A stretch of DNA of 64,000 nucleotides from Verrucomicrobiota bacterium (GTDB taxonomy: Bacteria > Verrucomicrobiota > Verrucomicrobiia > Chthoniobacterales > JACTMZ01), in NCBI GenBank assembly GCA_027624625.1, contig JAQBWH010000002.1, positions 24,271 to 88,270 on the forward strand, given 5' to 3'. Within the stretch, counting starts at the first letter, position 1. The number at the start of each line of letters is the position of its first letter. This document shows, one piece after another, positions 26,242-59,792 of the stretch. The translations under genes were made by a program, and so were the position numbers. The notes beneath the pieces are model-generated. The model saw only the letters and a program-made list of their open reading frames with translations. It had not been told where the DNA came from and did not search any database.

Positions 26242-26425
26242 CGCGGCGGTTGTCCGGCCGGCGTGAACAGAAGGCAACGAAGAGCGTCCTTTGACTTCCG
26301 CCGGCGAGTTGGTTGGGCCCGGACGGCTCCGGAACGCGGACCAATCGTGACCATTTTTCGCTGGCTGTAGCGCGGTGTCCGGCACTGGTTGGGTAGAGGT
26401 GGCGCCGCCGGTCGCACGCCGAATT

Positions 26426-26442
26426 GTGACAGAAAATTCACA
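26426..26442 (+). promoter_or_regulatory. Candidate Pho box (11-bp direct repeat)
   Basis: GTGACA-gaaaa-TTCACA, 50 nt before the likely start of the phytase-like esterase. Confidence 0.7.
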
Positions 26443-37520: not shown

Positions 37521-37588
37521 CCCGCGGCAGTCGGGACGCAACACCATGGCTGAGGAGACCGGGGCAGGCCAATAAGCCGCGGCTTTTT

Positions 37589-37605
37589 GTGACCAAATCT
37601 TCACA
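37589..37605 (+). promoter_or_regulatory. Candidate Pho box upstream of structured RNA
   Basis: GTGACC-aaatc-TTCACA followed by atttcccctttg, near-identical to the flank at 42650. Confidence 0.65.
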
Positions 37606-37936: not shown

Positions 37937-37981
37937 TTCCTGTGCTTGGCCTCCGCGTGGCAGACGCGCATTTTGAGGAGG

Positions 37982-38893
37982 ATGCCCGAGCGCACCACCG
38001 ACGACCGACTTTTGGCGGAAACCATCCGCAGCGAGATGCTGGAGGACATCGACGAGGAGCTGGAGTTGGAGATGGAGGAAGTCCGTTCCGAGGGCTCACG
38101 GGAGGGCGGTGACCACTCGCGCCGGTTCCGCCGCCAATACTTCCGCGAATTGTTCCGGCTGCAAACCGAGTTGGTCGCCCTGCAGGACTGGGTGGTCGCG
38201 ACCGGTCAAAAAATCGTCATCCTTTTCGAGGGCCGCGATGCCGCGGGCAAAGGCGGCACGATCAAGCGTTTCACCCAGCGTCTCAACCCGCGGGTTTGCC
38301 GCGTCGCCGCCTTACCCGCACCGAGCAGCCGCGAACGCACCCAATGGTATTTCCAGCGCTACGTGGCCTATCTTCCGGCCGCCGGCGAAATCGTCCTTTT
38401 CGACCGCAGTTGGTACAACCGCGCCGGTGTCGAGCATGTCATGGGTTTCTGCAGCGACGAGGAATACAAAGGTTTTTTTCGCGATGTGCCCGAGTTCGAG
38501 CGCATGCTGGTGCGCTCCGGCATCCGCCTGGTCAAGTATTGGTTCTCCATCACCGACGCCGAGCAAGAACAGCGTTTTCTGGCCCGCATTCACGATCCGC
38601 TCAAGCAGTGGAAGCTCAGTCCGATGGACCTCGAATCGCGGGCGCGCTGGGAGGACTACACCGTGGCCAAGGAGATCATGCTCCAGCGCACCAGCATTCC
38701 CGAGGCTCCGTGGTGGGTGGTCCCGGCGGTGGACAAAAAGAAAGCGCGCCTCAACTGCCTCGACCATCTCATCTCGCTCCTCCCTTACACCGAGACCCCG
38801 CACCAACCGGTTGTTCTGCCCCCTCGCCACCACCATGAGGACTACCACCGGCACCCGGTGCCGGAGGACATGATCGTGCCGCAAAAATACTGA
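37982..38893 (+). CDS. ppk2: Polyphosphate kinase 2
   Basis: FEGRDAAGKGG, WYFQRY, FDRSWYNRAGVE, WKLSPMD. Confidence 0.95.
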   Translation: MPERTTDDRLLAETIRSEMLEDIDEELELEMEEVRSEGSREGGDHSRRFRRQYFRELFRLQTELVALQDWVVATGQKIVILFEGRDAAGKGGTIKRFTQRLNPRVCRVAALPAPSSRERTQWYFQRYVAYLPAAGEIVLFDRSWYNRAGVEHVMGFCSDEEYKGFFRDVPEFERMLVRSGIRLVKYWFSITDAEQEQRFLARIHDPLKQWKLSPMDLESRARWEDYTVAKEIMLQRTSIPEAPWWVVPAVDKKKARLNCLDHLISLLPYTETPHQPVVLPPRHHHEDYHRHPVPEDMIVPQKY

Positions 38894-39021
38894 ACCTTTG
38901 GGCCCGTGGCCGCGAGCGTCGCCGGACTTCCTTACCGTGAACCTCCTTCTGCTGCAAAACATGTCAAAACTCTCACCTTCCCGTTCTTGCTCTCGCCGGC
39001 CAAACCTCTGATCTGCTTCCC

Positions 39022-40521: not shown

Positions 40522-40569
40522 CCGGTATTCGGGCAGAAGAAGCGAAAAGCAAGATCATCGCCTGGCAGC

Positions 40570-42015
40570 ATGCATCTTATCCTGCTCCTTGCGATTTTGC
40601 TGGCGGCTCACGCGCAAGCCGCGCCATCCGCGGCAACCACCACGGTCGACGAGGAGAAGCGGGCCAACCCGATTTTCATCCGCAACCCTGAAGACATCAC
40701 TTCGGGTGACATCCTCGCCGGCACGGCTGGCACAATCAGCGGCGAGCGGCGTCCCCTGCGTGAGCGCATGGGCGGGGCCTTGGAAGATTGGTGGAATGGA
40801 CCGCACATGCTCGGTGGCGACGGCAACCGTTTCGGGCCAAACCGCCGTCAGTGGCTCAAGGACCACGGGCTTTCCTTCGATGGCAATTACCAGGGCGCTT
40901 ATTTCGGCGTGGTCTCCAGCCAGAGCGGCTCGCGCGGATTCTGGGACGGGCAGCTGAATTTTTCCGGCCAATTCAATTTGGGTGATGCCTTCGACAATGA
41001 GCAACTGCGCGGTGTCCAGATGTTCGGGGCGACCCGTTACCGCAGCAATTGGGAGGAATCCAATCCGAACAACTCCGTCCTTGCCCAAAGCATGTTCAAT
41101 CCTTCGAACTGGCAATCCGGCACCCAGTTGCGCCTGCTCAACTTCGGCCTCCTTCTCGACAGCGCGAAAAACCTCCCTGTCGAGCACATGCTCACCCTCA
41201 AACTCGGATGGCTCCAACCCCAGCGCGAATTTGCCGACCAGCCGCTGAGCAAATTATTCCTCAACAATGCGGTGAACAGCGCCAAAGGCCTCGGGGGCAA
41301 TATCCCCTTCTCCTCGAGTGAATCCACCTGGGGCGGCACGCTCACCGTGCGTCCGCAGGATGACTTCTACCTGCGCAATGCGCTCTTCATGTCCTTTCCC
41401 AACCCCACTTCCTCGCAAAACCACGGGCTTATGTTCCAAGGCTCCCTCAACCCCGCGCAGAACGGACTTTGGTATATGGGCGAAGGCGGATGGACTCCGT
41501 CTTTCGGGCCGGAAAGCCTGCCCGGCAAATACGCTTTCGGCGGATTTTACTATGGCACGCCGGCCGGGCAGGCGACTTGGGGCGGGTCGACCGCTTCCGG
41601 TCAATATGGTTTTTACGCGCAGGCCGACCAAATGCTTTACCGGGAAGCCTCGACTGGTTCGGCGGCCGACCTCACGCCGCAAGGCTTGAACACCTTCAAT
41701 CTTTTTTTCTTTACCACGAGCGAGACAAAAGCGGACGTCTATCCTTTCTACTTCCAGAGCGGATTGGTCTATACCGGTCTCCTCCCGCGCCGCGACCTCG
41801 ACCTGGCCATGATCTCGCTCGGCTGCGGCGTCTACAGCCAGGCCTCTGGCGCACCTTCCCGCACCCAAACTGCGGTGTTGGAAGGAGCCTACCGCTGGCA
41901 GGTCAACGGCTGGTTCTATGCCCAGCCGTTTTTTCAATACTTCTCCCGTCCCAACGGCACCTCCTCCGTGGACAATGCCGGCATCCTCGGGATCACCGTC
42001 GGCACGGTCTTTTGA
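40570..42015 (+). CDS. OprB-like (carbohydrate-selective) porin
   Basis: Signal peptide, beta-strand pattern, GFYAQADQMLYRE, LEGAYRWQV, QPFFQY, terminal F. Confidence 0.78.
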   Translation: MHLILLLAILLAAHAQAAPSAATTTVDEEKRANPIFIRNPEDITSGDILAGTAGTISGERRPLRERMGGALEDWWNGPHMLGGDGNRFGPNRRQWLKDHGLSFDGNYQGAYFGVVSSQSGSRGFWDGQLNFSGQFNLGDAFDNEQLRGVQMFGATRYRSNWEESNPNNSVLAQSMFNPSNWQSGTQLRLLNFGLLLDSAKNLPVEHMLTLKLGWLQPQREFADQPLSKLFLNNAVNSAKGLGGNIPFSSSESTWGGTLTVRPQDDFYLRNALFMSFPNPTSSQNHGLMFQGSLNPAQNGLWYMGEGGWTPSFGPESLPGKYAFGGFYYGTPAGQATWGGSTASGQYGFYAQADQMLYREASTGSAADLTPQGLNTFNLFFFTTSETKADVYPFYFQSGLVYTGLLPRRDLDLAMISLGCGVYSQASGAPSRTQTAVLEGAYRWQVNGWFYAQPFFQYFSRPNGTSSVDNAGILGITVGTVF

Positions 42016-46438: not shown

Positions 46439-47146
46439 TCAGTCGTCCTCGTCGGCCCGGAAGAGATAGCCTTCCCCGTGCACGGTCTGGAGGCGGGCTT
46501 GGTGCGGCTTGAGCTTGGCCCGCAACCGGCGGACGTGCGTGTCCACGGTGCGGCTGCTGCTCATGTTGCGGTAGCCCCAGACGTCATGGAGCAGAGTTTC
46601 CCGGGTCAGCACCTGTCCGCGCTTTTCCATCAGGGCCACGAGGAGTCGGAATTCGAGTGCTGTCAGGTCGAGCTTGCGTCCGCCCAAGCGCACTTCGAAA
46701 GTTGCCCGGTCGAGAGCAAAGGGCCCGACCTGGAGCTGCTCGCCGGAATTGGAGGTGCGGGATTTTTGGATAAGCAAGCGGAGCCGCAGGACGAGTTCTC
46801 GCGGGCTGAAAGGTTTGGTCAGGTAATCGTCGGCACCCAACTCGAGACCGGCCACCCGGTCCTCGGGGCGGGCTTTGGCCGTGAGCATAATGACCGGAAT
46901 CCGGGCTGTGATCTCGCGCGCGCGCAATTGACGGCAAACATCTTCACCTCGCATCTCCGGGATCATCAGGTCGAGCACGACGGCCGAGGGCAATTTTTCG
47001 CGCGCCAATTTCAGGCCTGCCATCCCGTCCGATGCTTCAATCACGACAAAACCTTCTTTGCGCAAATGCAACCGGATCAGGTCGAGAACGTCGGGCTCGT
47101 CCTCGATGATCAGAACAACGTCTTTTGGGGGCGATTTGGCGGGCAT
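46439..47146 (-). CDS. Orphan PhoB/OmpR-family response regulator
   Basis: IIEDE, VVLDLMIP, IMLTAK, DDYLTKPFSPREL, SRTVDTHVRRLRAKL. Confidence 0.92.
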   Translation of the reverse strand: MPAKSPPKDVVLIIEDEPDVLDLIRLHLRKEGFVVIEASDGMAGLKLAREKLPSAVVLDLMIPEMRGEDVCRQLRAREITARIPVIMLTAKARPEDRVAGLELGADDYLTKPFSPRELVLRLRLLIQKSRTSNSGEQLQVGPFALDRATFEVRLGGRKLDLTALEFRLLVALMEKRGQVLTRETLLHDVWGYRNMSSSRTVDTHVRRLRAKLKPHQARLQTVHGEGYLFRADEDD

Positions 47147-47223
47147 GCGTCGTTTGGCGCTCGGTAGCTTCCTCGCAGAGGAAAGGCCTAACAGCGGGAT
47201 CGCCGCCCGGCCAATCAATATCT

Positions 47224-47240
47224 GTGACGAAATTGTTACA
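47224..47240 (+). promoter_or_regulatory. Candidate Pho box
   Basis: GTGACG-aaatt-GTTACA between the divergent response regulator and metallophosphoesterase genes. Confidence 0.65.
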
Positions 47241-47288
47241 CCTTTGGCGCTTTACCCGAGGCAACGGTGATGGGATGGATTTTACCGA

Positions 47289-48047
47289 ATGATGACCCAT
47301 CGCGCGGGCTGGATTTCCGATGTGCATCTCGGCACCAGAGGTTGCCAAGCCGAGGCCTTGCTTGAATTTCTCCGCGACCACGAATTCGAGACATTGTATT
47401 TAGTGGGAGACTTGATCGATATCTGGTCCTTGCGCCGGCGCCGTTACTGGCCGCAGGCCCACAGCGACGTGGTGCAAAAACTCCTGCGCAAGTCACGCAA
47501 GGGCACCCGGCTGATTTACATTCCGGGTAACCACGACGAATTTGTCGCGGAATTTCCCGGTGATTTCGGCAATATCGAAATCATGCCGCGCGCCGTGCAC
47601 CGGACGTGGGACGGACGCAAAATTCTCATTATCCACGGGCATGAGTTGGATACCGTGGTGCAGAACATGGGGTGGCTGGCGCACGCCGGCGGGCTTGGTT
47701 ACGAACTACTGCTGCAGGCGAACCATCCGGTGCATTGGGTGCGCCACCGGCTCGGCCTCGCGCCGTGGTCGCTGAGCGCCTACATCAAATCACGGGTCAA
47801 AAATGCGGTGAATTTTATCAGCGACTTCGAGGAAGCGATGGCCCGCTACGCGCGGGATGCCGGCGCCAGCGCGGTCCTCTGCGGGCACATCCATATGCCG
47901 TCCGTGCGTAGAATCGGAGAGCTCAGCTATTACAATTGCGGCGATTGGGTCGAGCATTGCACCGCTCTGGTCGAGAACCGTGACGGAAAGATCGAACTGC
48001 TGCGCCTGCGCGATTCCGCGGCGGCCGTCGCCGCGACTTCGCTGTAA
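47289..48047 (+). CDS. LpxH-like metallophosphoesterase, PlcP-type phospholipase C candidate
   Basis: SDVHLGTRGCQA, VGDLID, WPQAHSDVVQKLL, PGNHD, GHIH, NCGDWVE. Confidence 0.8.
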   Translation: MMTHRAGWISDVHLGTRGCQAEALLEFLRDHEFETLYLVGDLIDIWSLRRRRYWPQAHSDVVQKLLRKSRKGTRLIYIPGNHDEFVAEFPGDFGNIEIMPRAVHRTWDGRKILIIHGHELDTVVQNMGWLAHAGGLGYELLLQANHPVHWVRHRLGLAPWSLSAYIKSRVKNAVNFISDFEEAMARYARDAGASAVLCGHIHMPSVRRIGELSYYNCGDWVEHCTALVENRDGKIELLRLRDSAAAVAATSL

Positions 48048-48074: not shown

Positions 48075-48533
48075 TCAGCAGCAGCCCGACCCTGGCGTGC
48101 CGCAACCCGCCGCCGCGCCCGGGACCGGGAGGCAAATTTCCTTGGCCAGGCAGTCTGTGTGCTTGGTTCCGAGGTGCAGGACCACGGCGTCACCGGCACT
48201 GACCGAGAGGAGGGGGAACTGCGAGATGATGCCGTCCTCGAACTCGATTTCCACCGGAAGACCAGCCAACCCGAGCGGTTCGAGGGCGCGGCTGATGATG
48301 GCCTTGAGCTTGCCGGCGGACAGACGGTGATCCGTGTCGTCCGCTACCCAGGCCTGCAAGCAGCAGAAGGAAGTGCGGCGCATGGCCCCGCCGCAGTCGA
48401 GAAACTCGCGGTCGATGCGGCCGACCTCGGTGATGTGCGCGTGGTCGGGGATGCGCCCGCCATCGGGCAAAACAAAGGACACGGGTTTTTCGCCGAAAGC
48501 GGCGAGCAGGGCGTTGAGTTCGGCAGTATTCAT
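48075..48533 (-). CDS. DUF6428-like protein of ars clusters
   Basis: HITEVG, FLDCGG, TKHTDCLAKEIC, Cys-rich C-terminus ending GCC. Confidence 0.72.
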   Translation of the reverse strand: MNTAELNALLAAFGEKPVSFVLPDGGRIPDHAHITEVGRIDREFLDCGGAMRRTSFCCLQAWVADDTDHRLSAGKLKAIISRALEPLGLAGLPVEIEFEDGIISQFPLLSVSAGDAVVLHLGTKHTDCLAKEICLPVPGAAAGCGTPGSGCC

Positions 48534-48979
48534 GGAAGAGCAGGTAGGGTTTGGGGCATGGTCAGGAGCCAGCAACGCAACCGTTCACTGATCTCGTCGC
48601 GGACCCGCCGGAAGACGGCAAGTCGGTCCGCTTCGGATCCGGTCGCCGCCGACGGGTCGTCAAAAGGCCAGTGCAGGACCTCGCCGAGGGCCGGGTAAAT
48701 GCGAGGACATTCGTTGCTCGCTCGGGCGCAAACGATGATGGCATACCGCACGGGCACATGACCGAGGATGCCCTCGAGGCCTTTTGAGGTGTGGCCGGAA
48801 AGGTCGATGCCGCACTCCCGCATGGCCTCCACCGCGAGCGGGTGCGGTTGACTTGGTTCGGTTCCCGCGCTGAAGACTTCGAACCGGTCGCCGGCCAGGT
48901 GGCGCAACCAACCCTCCGCCATCTGGCTGCGGGCCGAGTTGTGCGTGCAGAGGAAAAGAACGCAGGGTTTGCGGGTCAT
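48530..48979 (-). CDS. arsC: Arsenate reductase (LMWP fold)
   Basis: [32 protein letters not shown]. Confidence 0.88.
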
Positions 48980-49431
48980 CGGGGTGGTGGCGCGTTGGTT
49001 TTGTCGCGGCGTCCCGCCGCATAGGCTCCGAAAACACGGCGGAGTTCGTCGCGCACACGGCGGAATTGCGCGGCGATTTCTTCCGCGGTGCCGGTGGCGT
49101 GCGCCGGATCATCGAAGGGCCAGTGATGCCGGTTCACCTGGCCGGGAAAAACCGGACAAGCCTGGTCCGCATTCCCGCACACCGTGATGACCGTCTCCAC
49201 TTCACGGTCGAGAAATTCATCCATATGCTTCGAGGTGTGGGCGGAAATATCGATGCCGATTTCGGCGAGGGCCGCGATGGCTTGAGGATGGACATAGCCG
49301 GCCGGGTTGGATCCCGCACTACACACTTCGAGGAGGTCGCCGGCCGTGGCGCGAAGGATGCCCTCGGCCATGTGGCTACGGCAGGAGTTGCCCGTGCAAA
49401 GGATGAGGACACGCGGCTTCTCGGGCATCAT
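48976..49431 (-). CDS. arsC: Arsenate reductase (LMWP fold)
   Basis: [30 protein letters not shown]. Confidence 0.92.
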
Positions 49432-50618
49432 CTTGCTCCCTCCATGGCCTGGCGCACCGCACGGCAGGCCTCGCTTTGCAGGAACAGGCGGTCCGGTCCC
49501 GACAGCTCCTGCTCGCCGAGGCGGTCGGCTTCCGCGATGATTTCACGGGGGAAATATTTGCGCCGGAACCAGAGCGCGACATGGACGAGCCCGATGAGCA
49601 CGGGAACCTCGATCAGCGGCCCGACCACGGTGGCGAAGGCCACCCCGGAGGCGATGCCGAAGACACCGATGGCCACCGCGATGGCCAGTTCAAAATTGTT
49701 ACCTGCCGCGGTGAAGGCAAGGGTTGTGCTGCGCGAATAATCCGCCCCGATCCGGCGACCGAGAAAAAAGCTGAGGCCGAACATGAGAATGAAATAGATG
49801 GTCAGCGGCAGCGCGATACGGAGGACGTCCAGCGGGAGCTTCACGATGGCGCCGCCTTTGAAGGTGAACATCACCACGATGGTGAAAAGCAAGGCGATCA
49901 AAGTAACGGGTGAGATCACCGGGATGAATTTGCGGTCATACCACTCGATGCCTTTGAGCGGAATGAGGATAACGCGACTGAGCACACCCGCCGCGAAAGG
50001 AATTCCGAGGTAAATCATCACACTGGCGAAAATCTGGCCGATGGTCACGTCGGCCAGCGACTTTCCCCCGAGCCCCCGGACCATGGACAAGTCGATCCCG
50101 AGCAGACCGGGCAACCAGGTGATGAAGACCCACGCGTAGAGGCCGAAGGTGACAATCTGGAAGACGCTGTTGAGCGCAACAAGGCCGGCGCAATACTCGC
50201 TGCTCCCCTTGGCCAGCTGGTTCCAGACCAAGACCATGGCAATGCAGCGGGCGATGCCGACCAGGATGAGCCCGACCATGTAGTCCGGATGATCGCGGAG
50301 AAACAGGACGGCGAGGATGAACATGAGCACCGGACCGATGACCCAATTTTGCAGGAGGGACAACCCGAGGACTTGGGGGTTGGAGAAAACTTTGGGCATT
50401 TCCTCGTAGCGCACCTTGGCCAAAGGCGGATACATCATGAGGATGAGACCCGCCGCGATGAGGAGGTTTGTTGTTCCGACCGTGACCGGGGCGAAGAATG
50501 CCTCGGGATTAACAATGAGAAAATTGCCGGCCAGAACGCCGATTCCCATGGCGGCAAAAATCCACAAGGTGAGGTAACGGTCCAGGAAGGACATCCGGCG
50601 TGCGATCGAATCGTTCAT
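49428..50618 (-). CDS. acr3: ACR3 family arsenite efflux pump
   Basis: [53 protein letters not shown]. Confidence 0.95.
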
Positions 50619-50983
50619 ACCGGGGTGACGGAACCGCGATGCGGCGACTTGGTGTTGACAAGTTGGCCCAGCTTCCGCAAGTCCCGCCCGAAGACGGCCT
50701 CTTCACCCGCACAATCCTGCAGGCAGGCGAGGTTGGCTTCGAGCAGGGGAGGTCTCTTCTTGGTCAAACGATAAAGCACCCATTTGCCCTTCCGCTCGGT
50801 TGTCACCATCCCGTGGCGGCGCAGATAGGCCAGATGACGCGAAACCTTGGCCTGCGGTTCTCCGATGACATCCTGCAAATGGCAGACGCAGAGCGGTCCC
50901 CGGAGCAGCAAATGCACGATGCGCAAACGCGTGCGGTGACAAAGGCACTCGTGGATCCGGACCAAGTTCACGCCGGAAAACAT
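50615..50983 (-). CDS. arsR: ArsR/SmtB repressor
   Basis: [33 protein letters not shown]. Confidence 0.9.
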
Positions 50984-51242: not shown

Positions 51243-52223
51243 TCACGATTTTTCCGCCCTTGCTGGTCGAAAGCCGGCCAAGCCGTGGCGCGGCGGGAGG
51301 AAAGCTTCGCGGAAAATCCCGAGACGTTTTTTTGGGTATATCGGGCCTCTTTTTTCTGCCTCCGCCGAGACGTCGCTGTTCTGACGGATGGCCTGTGCCA
51401 TGAGGGAGAGCCACTCCAAGCGCGGTACCGGGGCGAGGTAGTAGCCGGAGTAAACGAGGGCATCGTCGGCGTCCTGCGGCGCGACCTGGAATGCCGCGCC
51501 GATGGTGTGGCCGAGTTGCCAGAGATTGTCATAGCGCAAAGATGCGTCGAGGCGCAGCGGCGTGGTGTTGGCGCTGTATCGGTTGTTTAGCTCCACGCTG
51601 CCGTGGAGGGGAAAGGAATCTTCCACCACCAGCTCCACGTCGACCGAGCCCGGCATGGCGCCGGGTTTGAATTCCGGGGTGACCCGCAGATCGGCGCGCC
51701 GGTTGAGCCGGATAACGTCCTTCTCCACGTCGCGGAAGTTCGGGATGGACCCCTCGGCGAGGGAGGGGGCCAGGCGTTTGATCCTTTCGATGTCGTGGTA
51801 TTTCGATCCGCGGACAGTGAGCCGCCCGACTGGCATTTCCTGCACGCTGAGGACAATGATTCCGCTGGTCGGATCTTGCGGCGGAATTTCCACGACCACC
51901 GTCTGGTAGCCCGCGCGGTGGTATCTTTGCTCCAGTGCGGCACGGGCCAATTCGACATCCTCCGCCGTGCGTTCCGGGCCGAGATAAGCGTAGACGGCGT
52001 AGTCCACTTGGTCGCGCGGCAGGTGGCGCGATCCGATCACGCGGTATTCGCGGATGTGGAAAGACGGAGGCGGGAGGTCGGAGCCCGTGCTTTCACCCGC
52101 CGCGTCCGTGGTCGGCACGGCCCGTGCAGCCTCGCGGGGCTCGGCCAGAAACGCGATCAGACCCACCGCAAAAAGGCAGGCGCGCAGAGACACGAGGCGG
52201 GCCAGTTTGGCGGGCGGGGACAT
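51243..52223 (-). pseudogene. Truncated ShlB/FhaC/HecB (TpsB) outer-membrane translocator
   Basis: Signal peptide, POTRA (IREYRVIG, LEQRYHRAGY), LHGSVELNN, YDNLWQLGH. Barrel-like sequence stops after QNSDVS (~51366) and runs into an unrelated tail. Confidence 0.75.
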
Positions 52224-52315: not shown

Positions 52316-53131
52316 TCAGCCGAAGCGGCCGGTGATGTAGTCCTCGGTACGCTTTTCCGAGGGGCTGGTGAAAATCTTCGCCGTGGTGCCGAATTCGACC
52401 AGTTTGCCGAGGTAGAAAAAGCCAGTGTGGTCCGAGCAGCGGGTGGCCTGCTGCATGTTGTGGGTCACGATGACAATGGTGAACTCTTTTTTCAGCTCGC
52501 TGATCAGCTGCTCGACCCGGGCCGTGGCAATGGGATCGAGGGCGGAGCAAGGTTCGTCCATGAGCAGAACCTTGGGCCGGTTGGCAATGGCCCGCGCGAT
52601 ACAGAGGCGTTGCATTTGTCCGCCGGACAGCCCGAGGGCACTCTGGTGCAAGCGGTCTTTGACCTCGTCCCACAAGGCGCCGCCGCGCAGGCTGCGCTCG
52701 GCCGCTTCGTCGAGCTGGGTGCGATCGTGCAGGCCGCAAATGCGCAGGCTGTAGACCACGTTTTCGTAGATCGACTTGGCGAAGGGGTTGGACCTCTGGA
52801 AAACCATGCCGACCAATCTCCGCAAGGCGATGACCTCGAGGGCAGGATCCCAGAGGCTGCGTCCGGCCAAAGTGATTTCCCCGGTGTGCCGCACGCCGTC
52901 GATCAATTCGTTCATCCGGTTGAAATTGCGGAGGAGGGTCGTTTTCCCACAGCCGGATGGACCGATGAACGCGGTGACCTGACGCTCGGGAATATCGAGG
53001 ACAACGTCGTGCAGGGCCTGGTTCTTGCCGTAGAAGAAGTTGAAGTCGCGCACCGAGATGATGGGCCGCCCTCCGGCAGGCGGGGACGTTTCCCGGGCGG
53101 GACCGGGGAGGGAAGTGGTCGCGTCAGGCAT
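52316..53131 (-). CDS. pstB: Phosphate ABC transporter ATPase
   Basis: [48 protein letters not shown]. Confidence 0.97.
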
Positions 53132-53134
53132 GGG

Positions 53135-54025
53135 TCAGTGTTTTTTGCTGAAAACGAGTTGGGCGGTCACGTTGGTCGCGGTGACAAGAAGAACCAGCAC
53201 GAGGGAAGCGGTCCAAGCCATTTTCACCTGATGTTCGAAGGGGACGATGGAAAAATTGTAAATGAGCACGGCCAGAGAGGCCGTTGGCTCCATCAGGGAG
53301 GACATCCAGAACTGGCTGAAGAGCGCAGTGAAGACAAGCGGTGCGGTTTCGCCGGCCGCGCGAGCCACGGCAAGCATCACTCCGGTCATGATGGCCGGCA
53401 TGGCTTCGGGCAGGACGATGCGGCGGATTGTCTGGAAGCGCGTGGCCCCGAGACCGTAGGAAGCCTCGCGGTAGGAACGCTGCACGCCGAGCAGGGCCTG
53501 CTCGGAGGTGAGCAAAATGGTCGGCAGCATGAGCACGCCGAGGGCGACACCGCCGGCCAGGGCGGAAAATTTTCCGGTGGCCAAAACAATCGCGGCAAAG
53601 GCGAAGACGCCGCAGATGATGGACGGGATGCCGGTGAGGAGTTTGGCCGTGAAGCGGGTGATGGTGGCGAGGCGCCCGGCCGGCTCGTATTCGCAGATGT
53701 AGATCGCGGCAAGAATGCCGGGTGGCCCGGACAGGGCCAGTCCGATCCCCACCATGAGGAAGGTGCCGACCACCGCGTTGCCGAATCCGCCGCCGGTCAT
53801 TCCGGCCGCGGGCGGCAACTGGGTGAAGATCGACCAGTCCAGCAAAGGCAGGCCATTCTTCACCACAAGGTACAGGATGGACGCGAGGGGCACGAGTGCC
53901 GCGAAGGACAGCGCGATGCACAGGCCGGTGAGGAGACGGTTGCCCAAGGAGCGGCCGATCAGTTTGGTCGAGTCGATGCCGTCTTCTTGGAAAAAGTTCT
54001 CGGCGTGGGTCAGAGGATTATCCAT
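53135..54025 (-). CDS. pstA: Phosphate ABC permease
   Basis: GIPSIICGVF, REASYGLGATR, ARAAGETAPL. Confidence 0.94.
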   Translation of the reverse strand: MDNPLTHAENFFQEDGIDSTKLIGRSLGNRLLTGLCIALSFAALVPLASILYLVVKNGLPLLDWSIFTQLPPAAGMTGGGFGNAVVGTFLMVGIGLALSGPPGILAAIYICEYEPAGRLATITRFTAKLLTGIPSIICGVFAFAAIVLATGKFSALAGGVALGVLMLPTILLTSEQALLGVQRSYREASYGLGATRFQTIRRIVLPEAMPAIMTGVMLAVARAAGETAPLVFTALFSQFWMSSLMEPTASLAVLIYNFSIVPFEHQVKMAWTASLVLVLLVTATNVTAQLVFSKKH

Positions 54026-54030
54026 ACGCG

Positions 54031-54987
54031 TCAGCGGATACCCGCCGTTCTTTTTTCGGTGTAGCGCAACACGGCTTCACCGGCGAAATTGACCGCGAGG
54101 GTCAGGGCGACGAGCACCAGCGCGGCATACATCAAAGCGGCGACCTGCATGCCCTCGGCCTCGCCGAATTGATTGGCCAACAGGCTGGCCAGGGTGCCGG
54201 ACGGGGCAAAAAGCGACCAAGAAAGGCGCGAACTGTTCCCGATGAGCATGGCCACAGCCATCGTCTCACCCATGGCCCGTCCCAGCGCGAGGATGGTTGC
54301 CGCGACCACTCCCGGTGCGGCGGTGGGGAGAATGACCCCGAGGATGGCTTCCCAGCGGGTGGCGCCGAGGGCGTAAGCACCCTCCCGTAAGGTCCGCGGC
54401 ACGGCGACGAGCGAGGCGCGTGAGATCGCGGTGATGGTCGGCAGCACCATAAGAGCAAGGACCACTCCGGCAGTGAGCAGGGAATTGCCGTAAGCGGGAC
54501 CGGTCAGGAAAGGAAGATAGCCGAAGCGCTCCGTGACCCAAGTGCCGAGGGATTGGATGAGGGGAACCACAACAAAGATGCCCCACAGTCCGTAGACCAC
54601 GCTGGGGATGGCGGCGAGAAGCTCGACGACAAAACGGACAAAGTCACGGGCCTGACGGGGGAGGAAATCCTCGCTCAAAAAGATGGCAATGGCCAAACCC
54701 GGGGGGAAAGCCAGGACCAAGGCGATGATCGCGGTGGCCACGGTGCCGACGAGGAAGGGCAGCACGCCGTAACGGTCGCGGTTGGGCTGCCACTGCGCGC
54801 CGGTCAAAAAACCAAGGCCGTGTTCTTCCAGGGCCGGTTTGGCTTCCTGGAAAACCTCCCAGAAAATCCAGCCAAGCACGAAGACCGAGGAGACTGCGGC
54901 CAGCGCGGTGAACCAGCGGAAAAAATCCGGAAGCCTGCGCGCCACGTTGTCATGGATGCCGCCCGAGCTGGTCTTGTCGGTCGTCAT
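54031..54987 (-). CDS. pstC: Phosphate ABC permease
   Basis: ELLAAIPSVVYGLWG, EGAYALGATRWE, GRAMGETMAV. Confidence 0.95.
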   Translation of the reverse strand: MTTDKTSSGGIHDNVARRLPDFFRWFTALAAVSSVFVLGWIFWEVFQEAKPALEEHGLGFLTGAQWQPNRDRYGVLPFLVGTVATAIIALVLAFPPGLAIAIFLSEDFLPRQARDFVRFVVELLAAIPSVVYGLWGIFVVVPLIQSLGTWVTERFGYLPFLTGPAYGNSLLTAGVVLALMVLPTITAISRASLVAVPRTLREGAYALGATRWEAILGVILPTAAPGVVAATILALGRAMGETMAVAMLIGNSSRLSWSLFAPSGTLASLLANQFGEAEGMQVAALMYAALVLVALTLAVNFAGEAVLRYTEKRTAGIR

Positions 54988-55003
54988 GGGGAGACGGGTC
55001 CGC

Positions 55004-56005
55004 TTAATCGATGGTGGAAAGCGCTGCGTTGGCCTTGGCCACCACGGACTCGGGCAGCGGGATGTAGCCGAGATCCAGCGCGAAGGATTGGCCCTCGGTC
55101 AGCCCGTAGGTCACGAAGTCCTTGAGCGCTTTGAGCTTCGCGGCATTGTCATACTTTTGGTAAAGCAAGAGCCAGGTGAACGAAGCAATAGGATAGCCGT
55201 CCGGAGCCGCGGTGTCGACCGGCCAGGCCCGAAGGTTTTCCGGCAACTCGACCGAGGCCAGCGCGGCGGCGCCGCTGAGTGGCGTGGGGACAATGAAGTT
55301 GCCCGACTTGTTTTCGACCGAAGCGACCGGCAACTTATTCTGTTCGGCGTAGCCGAATTCGACATAACCGATGGCGCCGGGAGTCTGTTTGACCAGCGCG
55401 GTGACCCCCTCGTTGCCTTTGCCGCCCACCCCGACGGGGAAGGTGACCGATTTGTCATATCCCACCTCTTCATCGAATTCGGGGCTGATCGCGGCCAGAT
55501 GTTGGGTAAAGACATAGGTTGTCCCGCTTCCGTCCGAGCGGTAGGCCACCATGATGGGTCGTGCGGGGAGCGGGAGGTCGGGGTTGGCCGCGACAATGGC
55601 CGGATCGTTCCACTTGGTGACCGTGCCCAAAAAGATGCCGGCCAGCGCGGCGCGGGACAACTTCAGCCCGGTCACGCCCTCCAGATTGTAGGCCAGCACC
55701 ACACTGCCGGCGGTGACCGGAATCATCACTGCCCCGCGTGGTGATTTGGCCATTTCGGCGTCGGTCATGGCGGCATCGCTCGCCCCAAAATCGACCACCC
55801 CTTGGAGAAAATTTTTCACCCCGGCCCCGCTGCCGACTGATTGGTAGTTTACTTCGATGGCCGGAACTTGCTTGTTGTATTCGACCGCCCAGCGCTGATA
55901 GAGCGGCGCGGGAAAGGTGGCGCCCGCCCCGGAAAGTTGCTGGGCTTGCAGCGGCGCGGTGAAGCCGGCCGCAAAAATGGCAAAATGGAATAGTGGCTTC
56001 TTCAT
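55004..56005 (-). CDS. pstS: Phosphate ABC substrate-binding protein
   Basis: GAGATFPAPLY, YQSVGSGAG, DFGASD, RSDGSGTT, YPIASFTW. ATG at 56005. Confidence 0.96.
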   Translation of the reverse strand: MKKPLFHFAIFAAGFTAPLQAQQLSGAGATFPAPLYQRWAVEYNKQVPAIEVNYQSVGSGAGVKNFLQGVVDFGASDAAMTDAEMAKSPRGAVMIPVTAGSVVLAYNLEGVTGLKLSRAALAGIFLGTVTKWNDPAIVAANPDLPLPARPIMVAYRSDGSGTTYVFTQHLAAISPEFDEEVGYDKSVTFPVGVGGKGNEGVTALVKQTPGAIGYVEFGYAEQNKLPVASVENKSGNFIVPTPLSGAAALASVELPENLRAWPVDTAAPDGYPIASFTWLLLYQKYDNAAKLKALKDFVTYGLTEGQSFALDLGYIPLPESVVAKANAALSTID

Positions 56006-56069
56006 CGGTGGGAGGTGGGAAGCAAAGTCTCGTTGCTGGGCGGACGCGAAAGAAGCGAAAAGCATGAAG

Positions 56070-56086
56070 GTGTCGGATTTGTCACA
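56070..56086 (+). promoter_or_regulatory. Candidate Pho box in pstS/phoU divergent promoter
   Basis: GTGTCG-gattt-GTCACA. Confidence 0.55.
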
Positions 56087-56170: not shown

Positions 56171-56863
56171 ATGGAAGCTGCCACGACCAAACATATTTTG
56201 GGTGATTTTGACGATGGGCTGCGCTCGATGCGCGACACCGTGTTGATGATGGCCTCCCTGACCGAGCGCCTGCTGGCCTCCGCCAACGATTGCCTCTCTG
56301 CCCGCAGCTTCGAGGCGTGCGAGCGGGTCATTGCCGACGACGCAGAAATTGACACCTTGGAGAAGTCGGTCGACGAGGCAGGGGTCGCCATTTTGGTCCG
56401 GTTCCAACCGTTGGCCAATGATCTGCGTGAGGTGGTTGCCGCCATGAAGGTCAGCACCAACCTCGAGCGCGTCGCTGATCAAGCCGTGGGGATCGCCCGC
56501 CGCGCCCGCCGCCTCAACGAAGCTCCTACCTTGCCCGAGACGGACGGCTTGGTCAAAATGTGCCACGTTGCCGCGGGCATTTTTCGCGACAGCATCCGGA
56601 GTTACGCCGACCGCGACGAAGGTTTGGCCCGCGAACTGAAGGAGCGCGACCGCGAACTTGACGTCATGCACCATGCGTTTATCGATCAGTTGACCGTGCG
56701 CATGGCCAGCGATACCGGACGCATCCGTGACTATATTGATCTCGTGCTCATGGCGCGCAACCTTGAGCGCGTCGGTGATCACGCCACGAATATTGCCGAG
56801 GACGCCGTCTTCGCCGCATCCGCCGAAGACATTCGCCACACCGCGCCACTGGCGGGAGCCTGA
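56171..56863 (+). CDS. phoU: Phosphate signalling regulator
   Basis: DDAEIDTLE, QPLANDLR, NLERVADQA, DRELD, LERVGDHATNIAE. Confidence 0.95.
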   Translation: MEAATTKHILGDFDDGLRSMRDTVLMMASLTERLLASANDCLSARSFEACERVIADDAEIDTLEKSVDEAGVAILVRFQPLANDLREVVAAMKVSTNLERVADQAVGIARRARRLNEAPTLPETDGLVKMCHVAAGIFRDSIRSYADRDEGLARELKERDRELDVMHHAFIDQLTVRMASDTGRIRDYIDLVLMARNLERVGDHATNIAEDAVFAASAEDIRHTAPLAGA

Positions 56864-57756: not shown

Positions 57757-58467
57757 GTGAAACCCGCCCAGACCAAGCCGGCCAGCGTTCTGGTTATCGA
57801 GGACGAGGCCGACATGTTGGAGTTGGTCCGTTACCATATGGACAAAGCGGGGCTCCACGTTCTTCTGGCCCGCGATGGCCGGCAGGGACTGGAGAAAGCG
57901 AGGGCTCAATGCCCGGATGTCATCGTGCTCGACCTCATGTTACCGGCCATGAGCGGGGAGGATGTGTGCCGGGAGTTAAAGGCGGGCGCTGCCACCACCG
58001 CCATTCCGGTCATCATGCTCACGGCAAAAGCTCAACCGGAGGAACGCATCGCCGGCCTCGAACTCGGGGCGGACGACTACGTGGCCAAGCCTTTTAGTCC
58101 GCGCGAGCTTGTCCTTCGTGTCCAAGGCTTCCTCCGCCGTCAACGCGTGCCGGGCGCGGGCGATACACTGACTTTCGGGCCGTTCGAACTCGACCGGGGT
58201 ATCTTCGAGGTGCGCCTCGAAGGCGAGCGCCTCGACCTGACGGCCATCGAGTTCAAACTTCTTGCCATTTTGATGGAAAAGCGCGGCGCACCGATGGCGC
58301 GGGTTGATCTGCTGCGTGACGTCTGGGGCTACCGCCATCCGATCGACAGTCGCACGGTCGACACGCACATGCGGCGTTTGCGGGCCAAGCTTGGATGTTA
58401 TGCCGACTGCCTCGCCACGGTGCGCGGCGAAGGTTATTGTTTCAACGCGGGAAGGACGGAACCTTGA
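57757..58467 (+). CDS. phoB: Phosphate regulon response regulator
   Basis: VIEDE, IVLDLMLP, DDYVAKPFSPREL, SRTVDTHMRRLR; directly upstream of a PhoR-type kinase, near pst/phoU. Start at GTG 57757 is uncertain. Confidence 0.85.
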   Translation: MKPAQTKPASVLVIEDEADMLELVRYHMDKAGLHVLLARDGRQGLEKARAQCPDVIVLDLMLPAMSGEDVCRELKAGAATTAIPVIMLTAKAQPEERIAGLELGADDYVAKPFSPRELVLRVQGFLRRQRVPGAGDTLTFGPFELDRGIFEVRLEGERLDLTAIEFKLLAILMEKRGAPMARVDLLRDVWGYRHPIDSRTVDTHMRRLRAKLGCYADCLATVRGEGYCFNAGRTEP

Positions 58468-59792
58468 ACTGGCCGACGATAGCCGGGCTGTTCGCCACGG
58501 CCGTTCTCTTGCTCCTCGTCGTCCGCTATCTCGCGGGCATTCTGCGCCTGCGCTCCGCCTTGCGCCGGGTGGCCCACGGCGAGCTGACCCGTCCGCTCAC
58601 CCTCGATCTTCCGCCCGGTTTGCGCTGGGCACAGCGTGATGTCGAGGCGATCGCGCGGCAGGCTCGTGACCTTGACCGTGCCGCGCACCGTGAGCGCTCC
58701 GAACTTAATGCCATCCTGGCCAGCATTCCCGAGGGCATCTTCACCGTCGACCGGCGCCTCTGCCTCCTGCAGGTCAATCGCGGCGTTGAAGCCATGTTCC
58801 AGCTCTCCGCCTCGCCGGTCGGACGGACCGTGGTCGAAGCCTTCGGCCATGCCGCGATGCACCGCCTCGTGCAGACGGGATTGCAGGGGGGCAAAGAGCA
58901 TGGCGGCGAAATCACGGTCGAGCGGGACGGCGTCGCCCGGATTTTTGAATTGAGCATTTCGCCGCTGGAGCTGGGCTCCGACCATCCGGGTGCGGTCGTC
59001 GTGCTGCACGACATCACGCGGATCAAGAGCCTCGAGCAAGTGCGCCGGGAATTTGTGGCCAACGTTTCGCACGAGTTGCGAACCCCGCTCACCATCATCA
59101 GCGGTTATCTCGAAACGCTGGCCGATGGCGGCCTCGACGACCGGCCGATGGCGGAGAATGCACTGGGTGTTATGATCAAGCATGGTGATCGTCTCGGCCG
59201 CCTGGTTGATGATCTTCTGGTCATATCCCAGGCGGAATCTCGTTCCGTCCCGCTCGAGGTCGAGCGCATCGACCTCAGCGCGCTCCTGCATCATGTCGTC
59301 GAACAGTTCGACGAGCCGATCCGGAGCCAGGCGGCTACGGTGCGCATCCTTGCGGCGGGTGGGGACCTGACGCTCGAGGCCGATGCCGTGCGTCTCGAGC
59401 AGGTCTTCATCAACCTCCTCGAAAACGCGCTCAAATACGGCATCCGGCCCGGGTTGGTGGTCGACCTGCACCTTGAGCGATCCGGGCCGAATATCGAGGT
59501 GCAAGTCACTGACAACGGACCCGGGATCCCGCGGGCAGACCAGGAGCATATTTTCGAGCGCTTTTACCGGGTGCACAAAGACCGCTCACGCGAAACCGGA
59601 GGCACGGGACTCGGACTCTCCATTGTCAAAAATGTGATCCAAGCCCATGGCGGCAGCGTGTCCGTGCGCAGTGCGCCCGGCCAAGGTTCGACTTTCACCG
59701 TGGTCCTGCCGCTCCTCCAACCCGCCTCGGTGGCACCTGCGCCCTGGTCGGCCGCGAGAAAGACCGCAACCGAGGGGACGGGCGGGGGTTGA
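58464..59792 (+). CDS. phoR: Phosphate regulon sensor kinase
   Basis: TM, HAMP-like, PAS, VRREFVANVSHELRTPLT, NLLENALKY, FERFYRV, GTGLGLSIVK. Confidence 0.88.
   Translation: MNWPTIAGLFATAVLLLLVVRYLAGILRLRSALRRVAHGELTRPLTLDLPPGLRWAQRDVEAIARQARDLDRAAHRERSELNAILASIPEGIFTVDRRLCLLQVNRGVEAMFQLSASPVGRTVVEAFGHAAMHRLVQTGLQGGKEHGGEITVERDGVARIFELSISPLELGSDHPGAVVVLHDITRIKSLEQVRREFVANVSHELRTPLTIISGYLETLADGGLDDRPMAENALGVMIKHGDRLGRLVDDLLVISQAESRSVPLEVERIDLSALLHHVVEQFDEPIRSQAATVRILAAGGDLTLEADAVRLEQVFINLLENALKYGIRPGLVVDLHLERSGPNIEVQVTDNGPGIPRADQEHIFERFYRVHKDRSRETGGTGLGLSIVKNVIQAHGGSVSVRSAPGQGSTFTVVLPLLQPASVAPAPWSAARKTATEGTGGG

What the first reader, a model, noticed from the sequence alone, without database searches (positions are those of the whole stretch)
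47224..48047. Pho-boxed PlcP-like phospholipase C: possible membrane lipid remodelling
Seen: SDVHLGTRGCQA / WPQAHSDVVQKLLRKSRKG / PGNHD motifs with a box 50 nt upstream. Known: the PhoB-regulated PlcP of Sinorhizobium and marine heterotrophs is an LpxH-like metallophosphoesterase that releases DAG for P-free lipids. Inference: the same strategy in a verrucomicrobium; no partner glycosyltransferase is adjacent, and the usual HGD reads HGH.
Basis: partly seen in the sequence, partly recalled or inferred. Interest (0 to 1): 0.65.

Follow-up and report, generated by a model that had tools for sequence, protein, structure and literature searches.

The report
Phosphate-starvation phospholipase C (PlcP) gene
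This gene encodes an ordinary member of the PlcP family, enzymes that cut the phosphate head off membrane lipids when phosphate runs short, and it sits behind a conserved phosphate-starvation control site in an aquatic verrucomicrobium.

Summary
ORF 47289-48047 (+) is a 252-aa metallophosphoesterase with the quoted motifs. An 18-bp box (47223-47240) lies 49-66 nt upstream.

It is a PlcP, not LpxH:
- It is 49% and 53% identical to the S. meliloti and P. aeruginosa PlcP genes, against 26% and 33 bits to E. coli LpxH.
- It falls far below both NCBIfam LpxH cut-offs.
- It groups with both PlcPs, apart from six LpxH rows, with 100/99 support.
- The genome has LpxI beside lpxB.

The box is real. A similar site lies 62-101 nt upstream in 28 of 30 loci from the order. 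A matrix built only from other genera ranks this site first in the genome. The same matrix also finds sites before phytase-like, ppk2-PHO4-porin and phoU/pstS genes.

The gene lies in a phosphate gene island and is divergent from an orphan PhoB paralogue. HGH for HGD is real, not a metal ligand, and recurs in the family (23 of 150 representatives).

No partner gene is adjacent. One MGDG-synthase-like gene lies elsewhere, without a box. Activity, regulator binding and lipids are untested.

PlcP in Verrucomicrobia is already in print (PMC4796936). Earlier notes of this scan had found Pho boxes in this same window. This is a new member of a known kind.

The parts
47289..48047 (+). plcP-like gene: 252-aa cytoplasmic metallophosphoesterase of the PlcP family
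   Evidence: ORF. Pfam Metallophos_2/Metallophos. 49% identity to the S. meliloti PlcP gene and 53% to the P. aeruginosa one. It sits in the PlcP clade of the tree. All seven metal ligands are present: D11 H13 D41 N81 H116 H200 H202 (against the list in PMC5016852). The protein starts directly at the DxH motif, so I read no signal peptide (by eye).
47223..47240 (+). Pho-box-like operator TGTGACGAAATTGTTACA, shared by the two divergent genes
   Evidence: Sequence. Similar sites lie 62-101 nt upstream in 28 of 30 order loci. It is the top hit of the genome with the out-of-genus matrix, at 28.3 bits.
46439..47146 (-). RR1: orphan PhoB-like response regulator, divergent from plcP (start taken at the ATG at 47146; the ORF could begin at TTG 47218)
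   Evidence: Response_reg + Trans_reg_C. Best NCBIfam family is PhoB TIGR02154 at 222.9 bits, under its cut-off of 296.2. 60.6% identical to RR2, with a near-identical recognition helix. Present upstream and divergent in 8 of 9 same-genus loci and 0 of 21 others.
52316..56005 (-). pstS-pstC-pstA-pstB operon (context: same phosphate island)
   Evidence: tblastn with the E. coli proteins gave 40%, 41%, 38% and 57% identity. ORFs. The pstS ATG was read.
56069..56086 (+). weaker box in the pstS-phoU intergenic region (16.7 bits)
56171..56863 (+). phoU (context)
   Evidence: Pfam PhoU, 128.4 bits.
57787..58467 (+). RR2: PhoB-like regulator encoded with the kinase (context; the likely canonical PhoB)
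   Evidence: 39% identity to E. coli PhoB. TIGR02154 219.9 bits, under cut-off.
58395..59792 (+). PhoR-like histidine kinase (context; true start uncertain, because the ORF overlaps the end of RR2)
   Evidence: 35% identity to E. coli PhoR. PAS, HisKA and HATPase_c domains.
37588..37605 (+). box (25.5 bits) before ppk2 (37946-38890), PHO4 transporter (38941-40518) and OprB-type porin (40522-42012)
26425..26442 (+). box (20.6 bits) before a phytase-like esterase gene (26453-27790)

Best explanation
The gene encodes a PlcP-type, probably Mn-dependent, metallophosphoesterase. It most likely works on the cytoplasmic face of the inner membrane as a phospholipase C. When phosphate is scarce, a PhoB-type regulator binds the box 49-66 nt upstream and switches the gene on; the regulator would be the PhoR-linked RR2, the neighbouring paralogue RR1, or both. 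The enzyme then cuts the phospho-head group from the cell's own glycerophospholipids. The phosphate is recovered, and the diacylglycerol is left for phosphorus-free lipids. The most likely route to those lipids is glycosylation by the single MGDG-synthase/UgtP-like glycosyltransferase encoded on another contig. Shown here: family membership, intact metal ligands, a conserved operator shared with phosphate genes, the phosphate-island context, and a separate lipid A enzyme (LpxI). Inferred: the substrate, the metal, the binding regulator, the induction, and the fate of the diacylglycerol.
For: Family. The protein is 49.2% identical over 96% of its length to the S. meliloti CDS and 53% identical to the P. 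aeruginosa CDS. The S. meliloti CDS lies next to the LuxR-type and AHL-synthase genes. The P. aeruginosa CDS is followed by a GT1 gene and cyaB. Those two references are 47% identical to each other, which matches the 46% printed for PA3219 against S. meliloti PlcP in PMC8528852. In a 27-row IQ-TREE tree, the LpxH clade (6 rows) and the PlcP-like clade (21 rows) are each supported 100/99. The window's protein sits in a 99/99 clade of 19 rows with both PlcPs.

Not LpxH. The NCBIfam LpxH equivalogs score 46 against a cut-off of 134 and 41.8 against 190.35. Solved LpxH structures score at most 32 bits. The motif is GNHD, as in all PlcP-like rows, where the five proteobacterial LpxH rows have GNRD; that Arg80 binds the lipid X phosphate (PMC5016852). 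LpxI (142 bits, over its cut-off) lies beside lpxB in the same genome.

Regulation. The box is conserved in 28 of 30 order loci. One relative, L021, carries four GTCAC-type repeats in the same direction at an 11-nt phase. The out-of-genus matrix ranks this site first in the genome. It also finds sites before phytase-like, ppk2-PHO4-porin and phoU/pstS genes. Six of the 12 sites of 18 bits or more fall in this window, which is 3% of the genome. In 3 of 29 relatives the upstream ORF picked by the script is phoU.

DAG sink. An MGDG_synth + GT28_C gene lies at C10:4176-5273. This family is present in 120 of 121 order genomes. A homologue lies tail-to-tail with plcP in one relative, L038. PlcP-like genes with an adjacent glycosyltransferase are seen in Parabacteroides, Pannonibacter, Sphingomonas and P. 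aeruginosa.
Against: There is no assay, no lipid data and no binding data. No glycosyltransferase is adjacent in G000, and only 2 of 28 relatives' downstream ORFs are glycosyltransferases. The MGDG-synthase-like gene has no box: the best site upstream scores 9.5 bits. It also does not co-vary with plcP (120 of 121 genomes against 78 of 121), so its link to plcP is weak. The pstS-phoU site, where the strongest Pho box would be expected, scores only 16.7 bits. The half-site GTnAC is itself palindromic, so the 18-mer can also be read as an inverted repeat (GTGAC-N6-GTCAC) that a dimeric regulator of another family could bind. Several strong sites precede genes with no known phosphate link: a sigma-70 factor, HflX, a TamB-like gene and ORFs with no family. 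Both regulators score below the PhoB equivalog cut-off. HGH replaces the HGD of every PlcP-like reference row in which the motif could be read. RNA-library contigs overlap the gene, but two of them span the divergent intergenic region, as carried-over DNA would.
Confidence: 0.75

Rival explanations
1. It is the lipid A enzyme LpxH (UDP-2,3-diacylglucosamine diphosphatase), as automatic annotation names it and its relatives.
For: JGI and NCBI names of homologues say LpxH. The best NCBIfam and PDB hits are LpxH. The seven metal ligands are shared.
Against: Scores are far below both equivalog cut-offs. Identity to E. coli LpxH is 26% over 118 aa. The protein is separated from six LpxH rows by a 100/99 branch. 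It has GNHD rather than GNRD. LpxI sits next to lpxB in the same genome. A Ralstonia record carries both paralogues, which fall in the two different clades. The gene was not found in 43 of 121 order genomes, which is odd for an essential step.
Confidence: 0.02
2. It is a phosphate-starvation hydrolase of the PlcP family that serves scavenging only, or acts on another phosphodiester or pyrophosphate lipid (for example CDP-diacylglycerol or a phosphoglycolipid). No replacement lipid is made, and the H-for-D change marks an altered head-group preference.
For: There is no adjacent or box-controlled partner gene. BtaA (PF11899), OlsB-type (PF13444) and DgkA (PF01219) families were not found in a 98%-complete genome. 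HGH is fixed in 30 of 30 order loci and in 118 of 120 close homologues. A GT4 gene on C67 looks most like N-acetylglucosaminyl-phosphatidylglycerol synthase (284.7 bits, under its cut-off of 480), so unusual phospholipids may exist here.
Against: Sequence similarity to proven PlcPs runs through the whole protein, including the insertion region WSLSAYIKSRVKNAVNFISDFEEA. The D/H position is not a metal ligand and switches repeatedly in the family: 23 H against 121 D among 150 representatives, with at least 12 changes on a rough tree. A diacylglycerol glycosyltransferase family is present. plcP without a neighbouring partner is known (types 4 and 6, PMC4796936).
Confidence: 0.15
3. The box is not a PhoB site but the operator of another regulator, for example a dimeric CRP/FNR-type protein reading GTGAC-N6-GTCAC. 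The gene would then answer a signal other than phosphate.
For: The 18-mer is nearly palindromic: its minus strand still scores 16.9 bits. Only 9 of 14 positions match the E. coli consensus CTGTCATNNNNCTGTCAT as printed in PMC8528852 (my count). Some sites precede genes unrelated to phosphate.
Against: Sites precede phosphate-linked genes: phytase-like, ppk2-PHO4-porin, phoU/pstS and plcP. The two halves are unequally conserved; position 5 carries 0.44 bits and position 16 carries 1.5 bits. L021 has four same-direction repeats at an 11-nt phase. Two PhoB paralogues share the recognition-helix core RTVDxHxRRLR with E. coli PhoB, and one of them shares this very promoter region.
Confidence: 0.08

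Closest known systems
PlcP of Sinorhizobium meliloti (SMc00171; Zavaleta-Pastor et al. 2010, seen only as a citation; called 'phospholipase C SMc00171' among Pho regulon genes in PMC3596328, passage read)
   Same: 49% identity over 96% of the protein. Same clade in the tree. Shared GNHD, all metal ligands and the insertion region. Pho-regulon setting. No glycosyltransferase next to it there either.
   Different: HGH instead of HGD. The protein is shorter at both ends (252 against 281 aa). Its neighbour is a PhoB paralogue. That the CDS in L005 is SMc00171 rests on three things: its position beside the LuxR-type and AHL-synthase genes, my recall that sinR is SMc00170 (a search listing holds both words), and the 47% match to the PA3219-like CDS.
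PlcP of Pseudomonas aeruginosa (PA3219, with Agt1 PA3218; PMC8528852, passages read)
   Same: 53% identity. Same clade. A Pho box upstream is also reported for that operon in the paper.
   Different: In P. aeruginosa plcP forms an operon with a GT4-type glycosyltransferase. Here the gene stands alone. The best Agt1-like hits in the genome (32% identity, on C36 and C67) have no box, and the C67 one looks like another enzyme.
PlcP of marine heterotrophs (Phaeobacter sp. MED193 MED193_17359, SAR11 HTCC7211; PMC4796936, passages and section 13 read)
   Same: The same proposed role and the same Pho-box logic. The paper already lists Verrucomicrobia among the groups that hold PlcP, and describes contexts (types 4 and 6) without a neighbouring lipid gene.
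   Different: I did not compare these sequences, because none was available from a tool.
LpxH (UDP-2,3-diacylglucosamine diphosphatase; P. aeruginosa structures 5B49 and others, PMC5016852)
   Same: The same superfamily and probably the same fold with a helical insertion. The seven Mn ligands are shared.
   Different: 26% identity and 32-33 bits. Arg80 of GNRD is replaced by His. A separate clade. The lipid A step is covered by LpxI.

Membership tests
PlcP (PhoB-regulated phospholipase C of the LpxH-like metallophosphoesterases) | Groups with experimentally characterised PlcPs and apart from LpxH in a phylogeny | tested here: met
   a 19-row clade holding both PlcPs, support 99/99. The PlcP-like and LpxH clades are each supported 100/99. 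27 rows in all; 13 of the 29 fetched order loci were used.
PlcP (PhoB-regulated phospholipase C of the LpxH-like metallophosphoesterases) | Sequence identity to characterised members in the range they show to each other (46-47%, PMC8528852) | tested here: met
   49% and 53% identity. The two references are 47% identical to each other.
PlcP (PhoB-regulated phospholipase C of the LpxH-like metallophosphoesterases) | Intact dinuclear metal site of the metallophosphoesterase superfamily (seven ligands) | tested here: met
   D11, H13, D41, N81, H116, H200 and H202 are invariant in alignment A1. They correspond to D8, H10, D41, N79, H114, H195 and H197 of PaLpxH (PMC5016852).
PlcP (PhoB-regulated phospholipase C of the LpxH-like metallophosphoesterases) | HGD after the fourth metal ligand, as in every PlcP-like reference row in which the motif could be read | tested here: not met
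   HGH here, in 30 of 30 order loci and in 118 of 120 close homologues. However, 23 of 150 family representatives also carry H. The position is not a metal ligand, so I do not treat it as defining.
PlcP (PhoB-regulated phospholipase C of the LpxH-like metallophosphoesterases) | Pho box upstream / membership of the Pho regulon | tested here: met
   Met at the sequence level only: conserved box, top genome-wide hit, and sites shared with phosphate genes. Binding and induction were not testable.
PlcP (PhoB-regulated phospholipase C of the LpxH-like metallophosphoesterases) | Mn-dependent release of diacylglycerol from glycerophospholipids | not testable with these tools
   Needs an enzyme assay. 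The Mn dependence of PlcP is known to me only from the title of Wei et al. 2018 in a reference list; the paper is not held.
PlcP (PhoB-regulated phospholipase C of the LpxH-like metallophosphoesterases) | A gene for a phosphorus-free lipid next to it, or elsewhere in the genome | tested here: inconclusive
   None is adjacent. One MGDG_synth/GT28 gene lies elsewhere without a box. BtaA and OlsB-type families were not found.
LpxH (lipid A pathway) | Scores over the curated equivalog cut-offs | tested here: not met
   46 against 134 (NF003743) and 41.8 against 190.35 (TIGR01854).
LpxH (lipid A pathway) | Arg in GNRD that binds the substrate phosphate | tested here: not met
   GNHD here. The role of Arg80 is taken from PMC5016852.
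LpxH (lipid A pathway) | It is the genome's only UDP-diacylglucosamine hydrolase | tested here: not met
   LpxI_C scores 142.4 bits (cut-off 25) at C74:14067-14453, about 1 kb before lpxB.
Pho box (PhoB operator) | Two 7-nt direct repeats at an 11-nt period close to the promoter | tested here: met
   CTGTGAC-GAAA-TTGTTAC, 49-66 nt before the ATG. It matches 9 of 14 consensus positions (my count against the consensus printed in PMC8528852). No sigma-70-type -35/-10 pair was found by the simple scan, which is not informative for PhoB-dependent promoters.
Pho box (PhoB operator) | Bound by phosphorylated PhoB | not testable with these tools
   Needs a gel shift or footprint with RR1 and RR2.

The most novel reading that the evidence does not exclude
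In this genus, lipid remodelling may have its own regulatory module. A second, kinase-less PhoB paralogue (RR1) is transcribed divergently from plcP, and one shared Pho box controls both. The canonical PhoR-PhoB would then first raise RR1, and RR1 would then drive plcP as a feed-forward step. In addition, the clade-wide H-for-D change next to the metal site could give this PlcP a head-group preference different from the proteobacterial enzymes.
Probability: 0.15. Interest if true: 0.5.

Novelty: new member of a known kind. Interest (0 to 1): 0.3.

Why it matters
It corrects a routine mis-annotation: relatives of this gene are named LpxH in public records. It also adds sequence-level support that aquatic Chthoniobacterales can save phosphorus by dismantling their phospholipids. 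That capacity is known from Proteobacteria and Flavobacteria and has so far been only listed for Verrucomicrobia. As a by-product, the work gives a usable Pho-box matrix for this order (consensus TGTGACGAAATTGTCACA) and a map of a compact phosphate island. Both can guide regulon prediction in uncultured relatives. It changes no concept.

Tried and rejected
So there is no model, no fold search, and no view of where H118 lies relative to the metal site.

Partner genes.
- BtaA (PF11899), OlsB-type (PF13444) and DgkA (PF01219) were not found in the 98.4%-complete genome.
- P. aeruginosa Agt1 gave only 32% hits on C36 (an 810-aa PHP+GT4 protein) and C67. The C67 protein is closest to GlcNAc-phosphatidylglycerol synthase, under that family's cut-off. 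Neither gene has a box.
- Co-occurrence of plcP with MGDG_synth across the order says nothing, because the latter is nearly universal.

Neighbour survey. It used a crude rule: the longest flanking ORF with high GC3 within 1.5 kb. It therefore missed, for example, the regulator in L010, L011 and L013, which tblastn later found. My tblastn with the G000 PhoU found no PhoU in the loci, although Pfam found PhoU in 3 of 29 upstream ORFs. The query was cut out of frame at its end, and I did not repeat the search.

Box detection. The strict regular expression for the box found it in only 9 of 30 loci. The figure of 28 of 30 comes from a matrix refined on those same sequences, so it is partly circular. 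The genome scan avoided this by using only sites from other genera.

Promoter scan. No sigma-70 promoter, and one terminator-like site inside the gene on the other strand, within chance.

RNA runs. Only assembled contigs were available, so they show neither level nor strand. Bins without cover mean nothing.

H/D tree. It is a FastTree on 153 rows, after I dropped representatives shorter than 225 aa or without a readable motif. In it the order's sequences were not even monophyletic, so '12 changes' is rough.

Papers. Wei et al. 2018 (PMC6052262) is not held. Zavaleta-Pastor et al. 2010 was not found by the search for SMc00171.

Printed record. For verrucomicrobial PlcP I ran search 72 (PlcP + Verrucomicrobia: 6 papers, none experimental on Verrucomicrobia by their listings and the passages I read) and search 11.
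Full report
WHAT IS THERE. The window is G000:C11:24271-88270 of a 2.12-Mb, 79-contig, 98.4%-complete genome. ORF 47289..48047 (+) encodes 252 aa. The quoted strings SDVHLGTRGCQA, WPQAHSDVVQKLLRKSRKG and PGNHD are present, as is IIHGHELD. Pfam finds only the two general calcineurin-like phosphoesterase families. The DNA upstream reads CTGTGAC GAAA TTGTTAC at 47222-47239, which is 49-66 nt before the ATG. Upstream and divergent lies an OmpR/PhoB-type response regulator, 46439..47146 or 47218 (-). Downstream and convergent lies an ars operon: DUF6428, two LMWP-type ArsC, an ACR3/SBF carrier and ArsR. The gene is therefore monocistronic and has no glycosyltransferase neighbour. Close homologues are named after Chthoniobacterales or Chthoniobacteraceae in their source records.

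PlcP OR LpxH.
- The two NCBIfam LpxH equivalogs are the best named hits, but at 46 and 41.8 bits against cut-offs of 134 and 190.35.
- Solved LpxH structures match at 32 bits or less. E. coli LpxH matches at 26% over 118 aa, 33 bits.
- A tblastn against the plasmid collection, which holds some chromosome-sized records, found 33 records.
- One hit is a S. meliloti CDS at 49.2% identity. It lies beside the LuxR-type regulator and AHL synthase genes. By my recall of the locus tags that is the position of SMc00171; a search listing holds 'SMc00170' together with 'sinR'.
- Another hit is a P. aeruginosa CDS at 53% identity, followed by a GT1 gene and cyaB. That is the PA3219-PA3218 arrangement described in PMC8528852.
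- The two reference CDSs are 47% identical to each other, against 46% printed in that paper. This supports their identification.
- I built a 27-row maximum-likelihood tree. It held the window's protein and 13 of the 29 order loci fetched. It also held the two PlcPs, five other PlcP-like CDSs (three of them with an adjacent glycosyltransferase), five proteobacterial LpxH sequences and one Bacteroides 'LpxH'.
- The tree splits into an LpxH clade (6 rows, 100/99) and a PlcP-like clade (21 rows, 100/99). The window's protein lies in a 99/99 clade of 19 rows with both characterised PlcPs, and the order's 14 rows are monophyletic (97/99).
- A Ralstonia record holds both paralogues, one in each clade.
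- All PlcP-like rows read GNHD and the five proteobacterial LpxH rows read GNRD. That Arg80 binds the lipid X phosphate (PMC5016852).
- The genome has LpxI (142.4 bits, cut-off 25) about 1 kb before lpxB, so the lipid A step is covered.

ACTIVE SITE AND THE HGH. The seven metal ligands listed for PaLpxH (D8, H10, D41, N79, H114, H195, H197; PMC5016852) correspond to D11, H13, D41, N81, H116, H200 and H202, which are invariant in alignment A1. The H of HGH (H118) is two residues after ligand H116 and is not itself a ligand. HGH is fixed in 30 of 30 order loci and in 118 of the 120 listed homologues; 1 reads D and 1 was unreadable. Six of the seven PlcP-like reference rows from outside the order read HGD, and the Parabacteroides row was unreadable. 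Among the 150 best representatives of 50%-identity clusters, 23 read H, 121 read D and 6 were unreadable. On a rough FastTree the state changes at least 12 times. I therefore read HGH as a tolerated, recurrent variant and not as a loss of function. Whether it shifts specificity is open. No structure could be predicted.

THE BOX.
- The gene is present in 78 of 121 sampled genomes of the order at E <= 1e-10. I analysed the 30 loci that were fetched: G000 plus the 29 best matches.
- A strict pattern found the box in 9 of 30. A matrix refined on these sequences places an 18-mer of consensus TGTGACGAAATTGTCACA 62-101 nt before the start in 28 of 30; L018 and L026 are poor.
- L021 shows four GTCAC-type repeats in one direction at an 11-nt phase, which is the architecture of multiple Pho boxes.
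- To avoid circularity I built a matrix from 18 of the 21 out-of-genus sites and scanned both strands of G000. The plcP site is the best in the genome, at 28.3 bits.
- Sites of 20, 18, 16 and 14 bits or more number 7, 12, 18 and 36. Three Markov-1 simulations gave 0.67, 1.3, 9.3 and 26. Two sites are counted on both strands.
- Six of the 12 sites of 18 bits or more lie in this 64-kb window, and one more lies 10.7 kb beyond it.
- Downstream genes:
  - a phytase-like esterase (site at 26425);
  - an LTD + PEP-CTERM protein (31104; 17.2 bits);
  - ppk2, then a PHO4 transporter, then an OprB-type porin (37588 and 37919);
  - a sigma-70 factor (42638);
  - a POTRA_2 ShlB-type gene (52272, minus strand);
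  - phoU, with pstS divergent (56069; 16.7 bits);
  - HflX (62469);
  - on other contigs, a PEP-CTERM protein, a TamB-like protein and ORFs without a family.
- So the motif marks phosphate genes, but not only them, and the pst site is weaker than expected.
- Earlier notes of this scan had also called Pho boxes at the phytase-like cassette, the ppk2 spacer, the sigma factor and the POTRA gene. I re-found those sites independently with the out-of-genus matrix.

THE PHOSPHATE ISLAND AND TWO PhoB PARALOGUES. tblastn with E. coli proteins places pstSCAB at 52316-56005 (-). phoU starts at 56171, a PhoB-like regulator (RR2) lies at about 57787-58467, and a PhoR-like kinase follows it; all three are on the + strand. 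RR1, beside plcP, and RR2 are 60.6% identical. Both score best to PhoB TIGR02154 (222.9 and 219.9 bits), under the cut-off of 296.2. They carry SRTVDTH(V/M)RRLRAKL where E. coli PhoB has DRTVDVHIRRLRKAL. A divergent regulator upstream of plcP is found in 8 of 9 same-genus loci and in 0 of 21 loci from other genera. In 3 of 29 relatives the upstream ORF is phoU, and in 5 of 29 it is a NusG-like gene.

WHERE THE DIACYLGLYCEROL COULD GO. G000 has one MGDG_synth + GT28_C gene at C10:4176-5273. It scores 62.7-65.1 bits, and its best NCBIfam hit is diglucosyl-diacylglycerol synthase at 123.5 bits, under that family's cut-off of 500. It starts at the stop codon of the gene before it and has no box; the best site scores 9.5 bits. 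The family is in 120 of 121 order genomes. In one relative (L038) a 36%-identical homologue lies tail-to-tail with plcP. A UgtP-type diacylglycerol glycosyltransferase beside plcP is also reported in type Ia methanotrophs (PMC9239053, passages read). BtaA, OlsB-type and DgkA families were not found. The glycolipid route is thus the best candidate, but it is weakly tied to plcP.

IN NATURE. Near-identical DNA occurs in aquatic, estuary and marine metagenomes: 20 rows from 13 studies, one of which may be the source. Contigs from RNA libraries overlap plcP in X15, X17 and X19, with 7-13 differences, so they may come from close relatives. In X15 and X16 contigs span the RR1-plcP intergenic region. 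Contigs give no level or strand, and DNA carry-over is not excluded, so this is only a weak hint of transcription.

COMPARISON AND VERDICT. In how it works and in family membership, the gene fits PlcP. The one reference feature tested and not met is HGD, which is not a ligand and varies within the family. It is not LpxH. The literature already states that PlcP occurs in Verrucomicrobia and that some plcP genes lack a neighbouring lipid gene (PMC4796936; repeated in PMC13086504). PMC9239053 reports none in verrucomicrobial methanotrophs. I found no experimental work on a verrucomicrobial PlcP. The finding is real and correctly read, but ordinary: a new member of a known kind. The genus-specific PhoB paralogue sharing the box, the lineage's Pho-box consensus and the compact phosphate island are the only mildly new points.

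Noticed in passing
window 26425-62486 (boxes at 26425, 31104, 37588, 37919, 42638, 47223, 52272, 56069, 62469): A compact phosphate island. Nine sites of the same box lie within about 36 kb, before phytase-like, LTD/PEP-CTERM, ppk2-PHO4-porin, sigma-70, plcP, POTRA/ShlB-type, phoU/pstS and hflX genes. Six of the genome's 12 sites of 18 bits or more lie here.
   Followed up: partly
loci L022, L024, L029, L030, L032-L037, about 20-50 nt before the plcP start: A second conserved motif, roughly TTGTGAATAAcTTGTGAACAA (an 11-nt direct repeat), lies between the Pho-type box and the start codon in relatives outside the genus. It is absent in G000 and its genus (read by eye). It could be a second regulator site or the core promoter.
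   Followed up: no
window 48075-50983 (-): An ars operon (ArsR, ACR3, two LMWP ArsC, DUF6428) sits between plcP and the pst operon. This links arsenate defence physically to the phosphate-uptake genes. No box of 14 bits or more lies before it.
   Followed up: no
G000:C67:7713-8870 (L046:1713-2870, -): A 386-aa GT4 protein whose best NCBIfam hit is N-acetylglucosaminyl-phosphatidylglycerol synthase (284.7 bits, under its cut-off of 480). This hints at a glycosylated phospholipid in this organism.
   Followed up: no
upstream ORFs of plcP in 5 of 29 relatives' loci (alignment A2): In five relatives a NusG-family gene (two of them also with a KOW motif) is the ORF picked upstream of plcP. I did not record which loci, nor whether it is a specialised NusG paralogue.
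   Followed up: no
window 51246-52223 (-): A POTRA_2 (ShlB-type) gene lies behind a 24.9-bit box directly after pstB.
   Followed up: no
plasmid collection records CP090106.1, NZ_CP115947.1, NZ_CP119142.1, NZ_CP077849.1: Several records filed as plasmids are chromosome-sized and carry chromosomal genes. Examples are a 3.7-Mb S. meliloti 'pSymB' with sinI/sinR-type genes, and 2.2-3.7-Mb Neisseria and Acinetobacter 'plasmids' with lpxH. They were useful here as a source of reference genes, but they are mislabelled.
   Followed up: no
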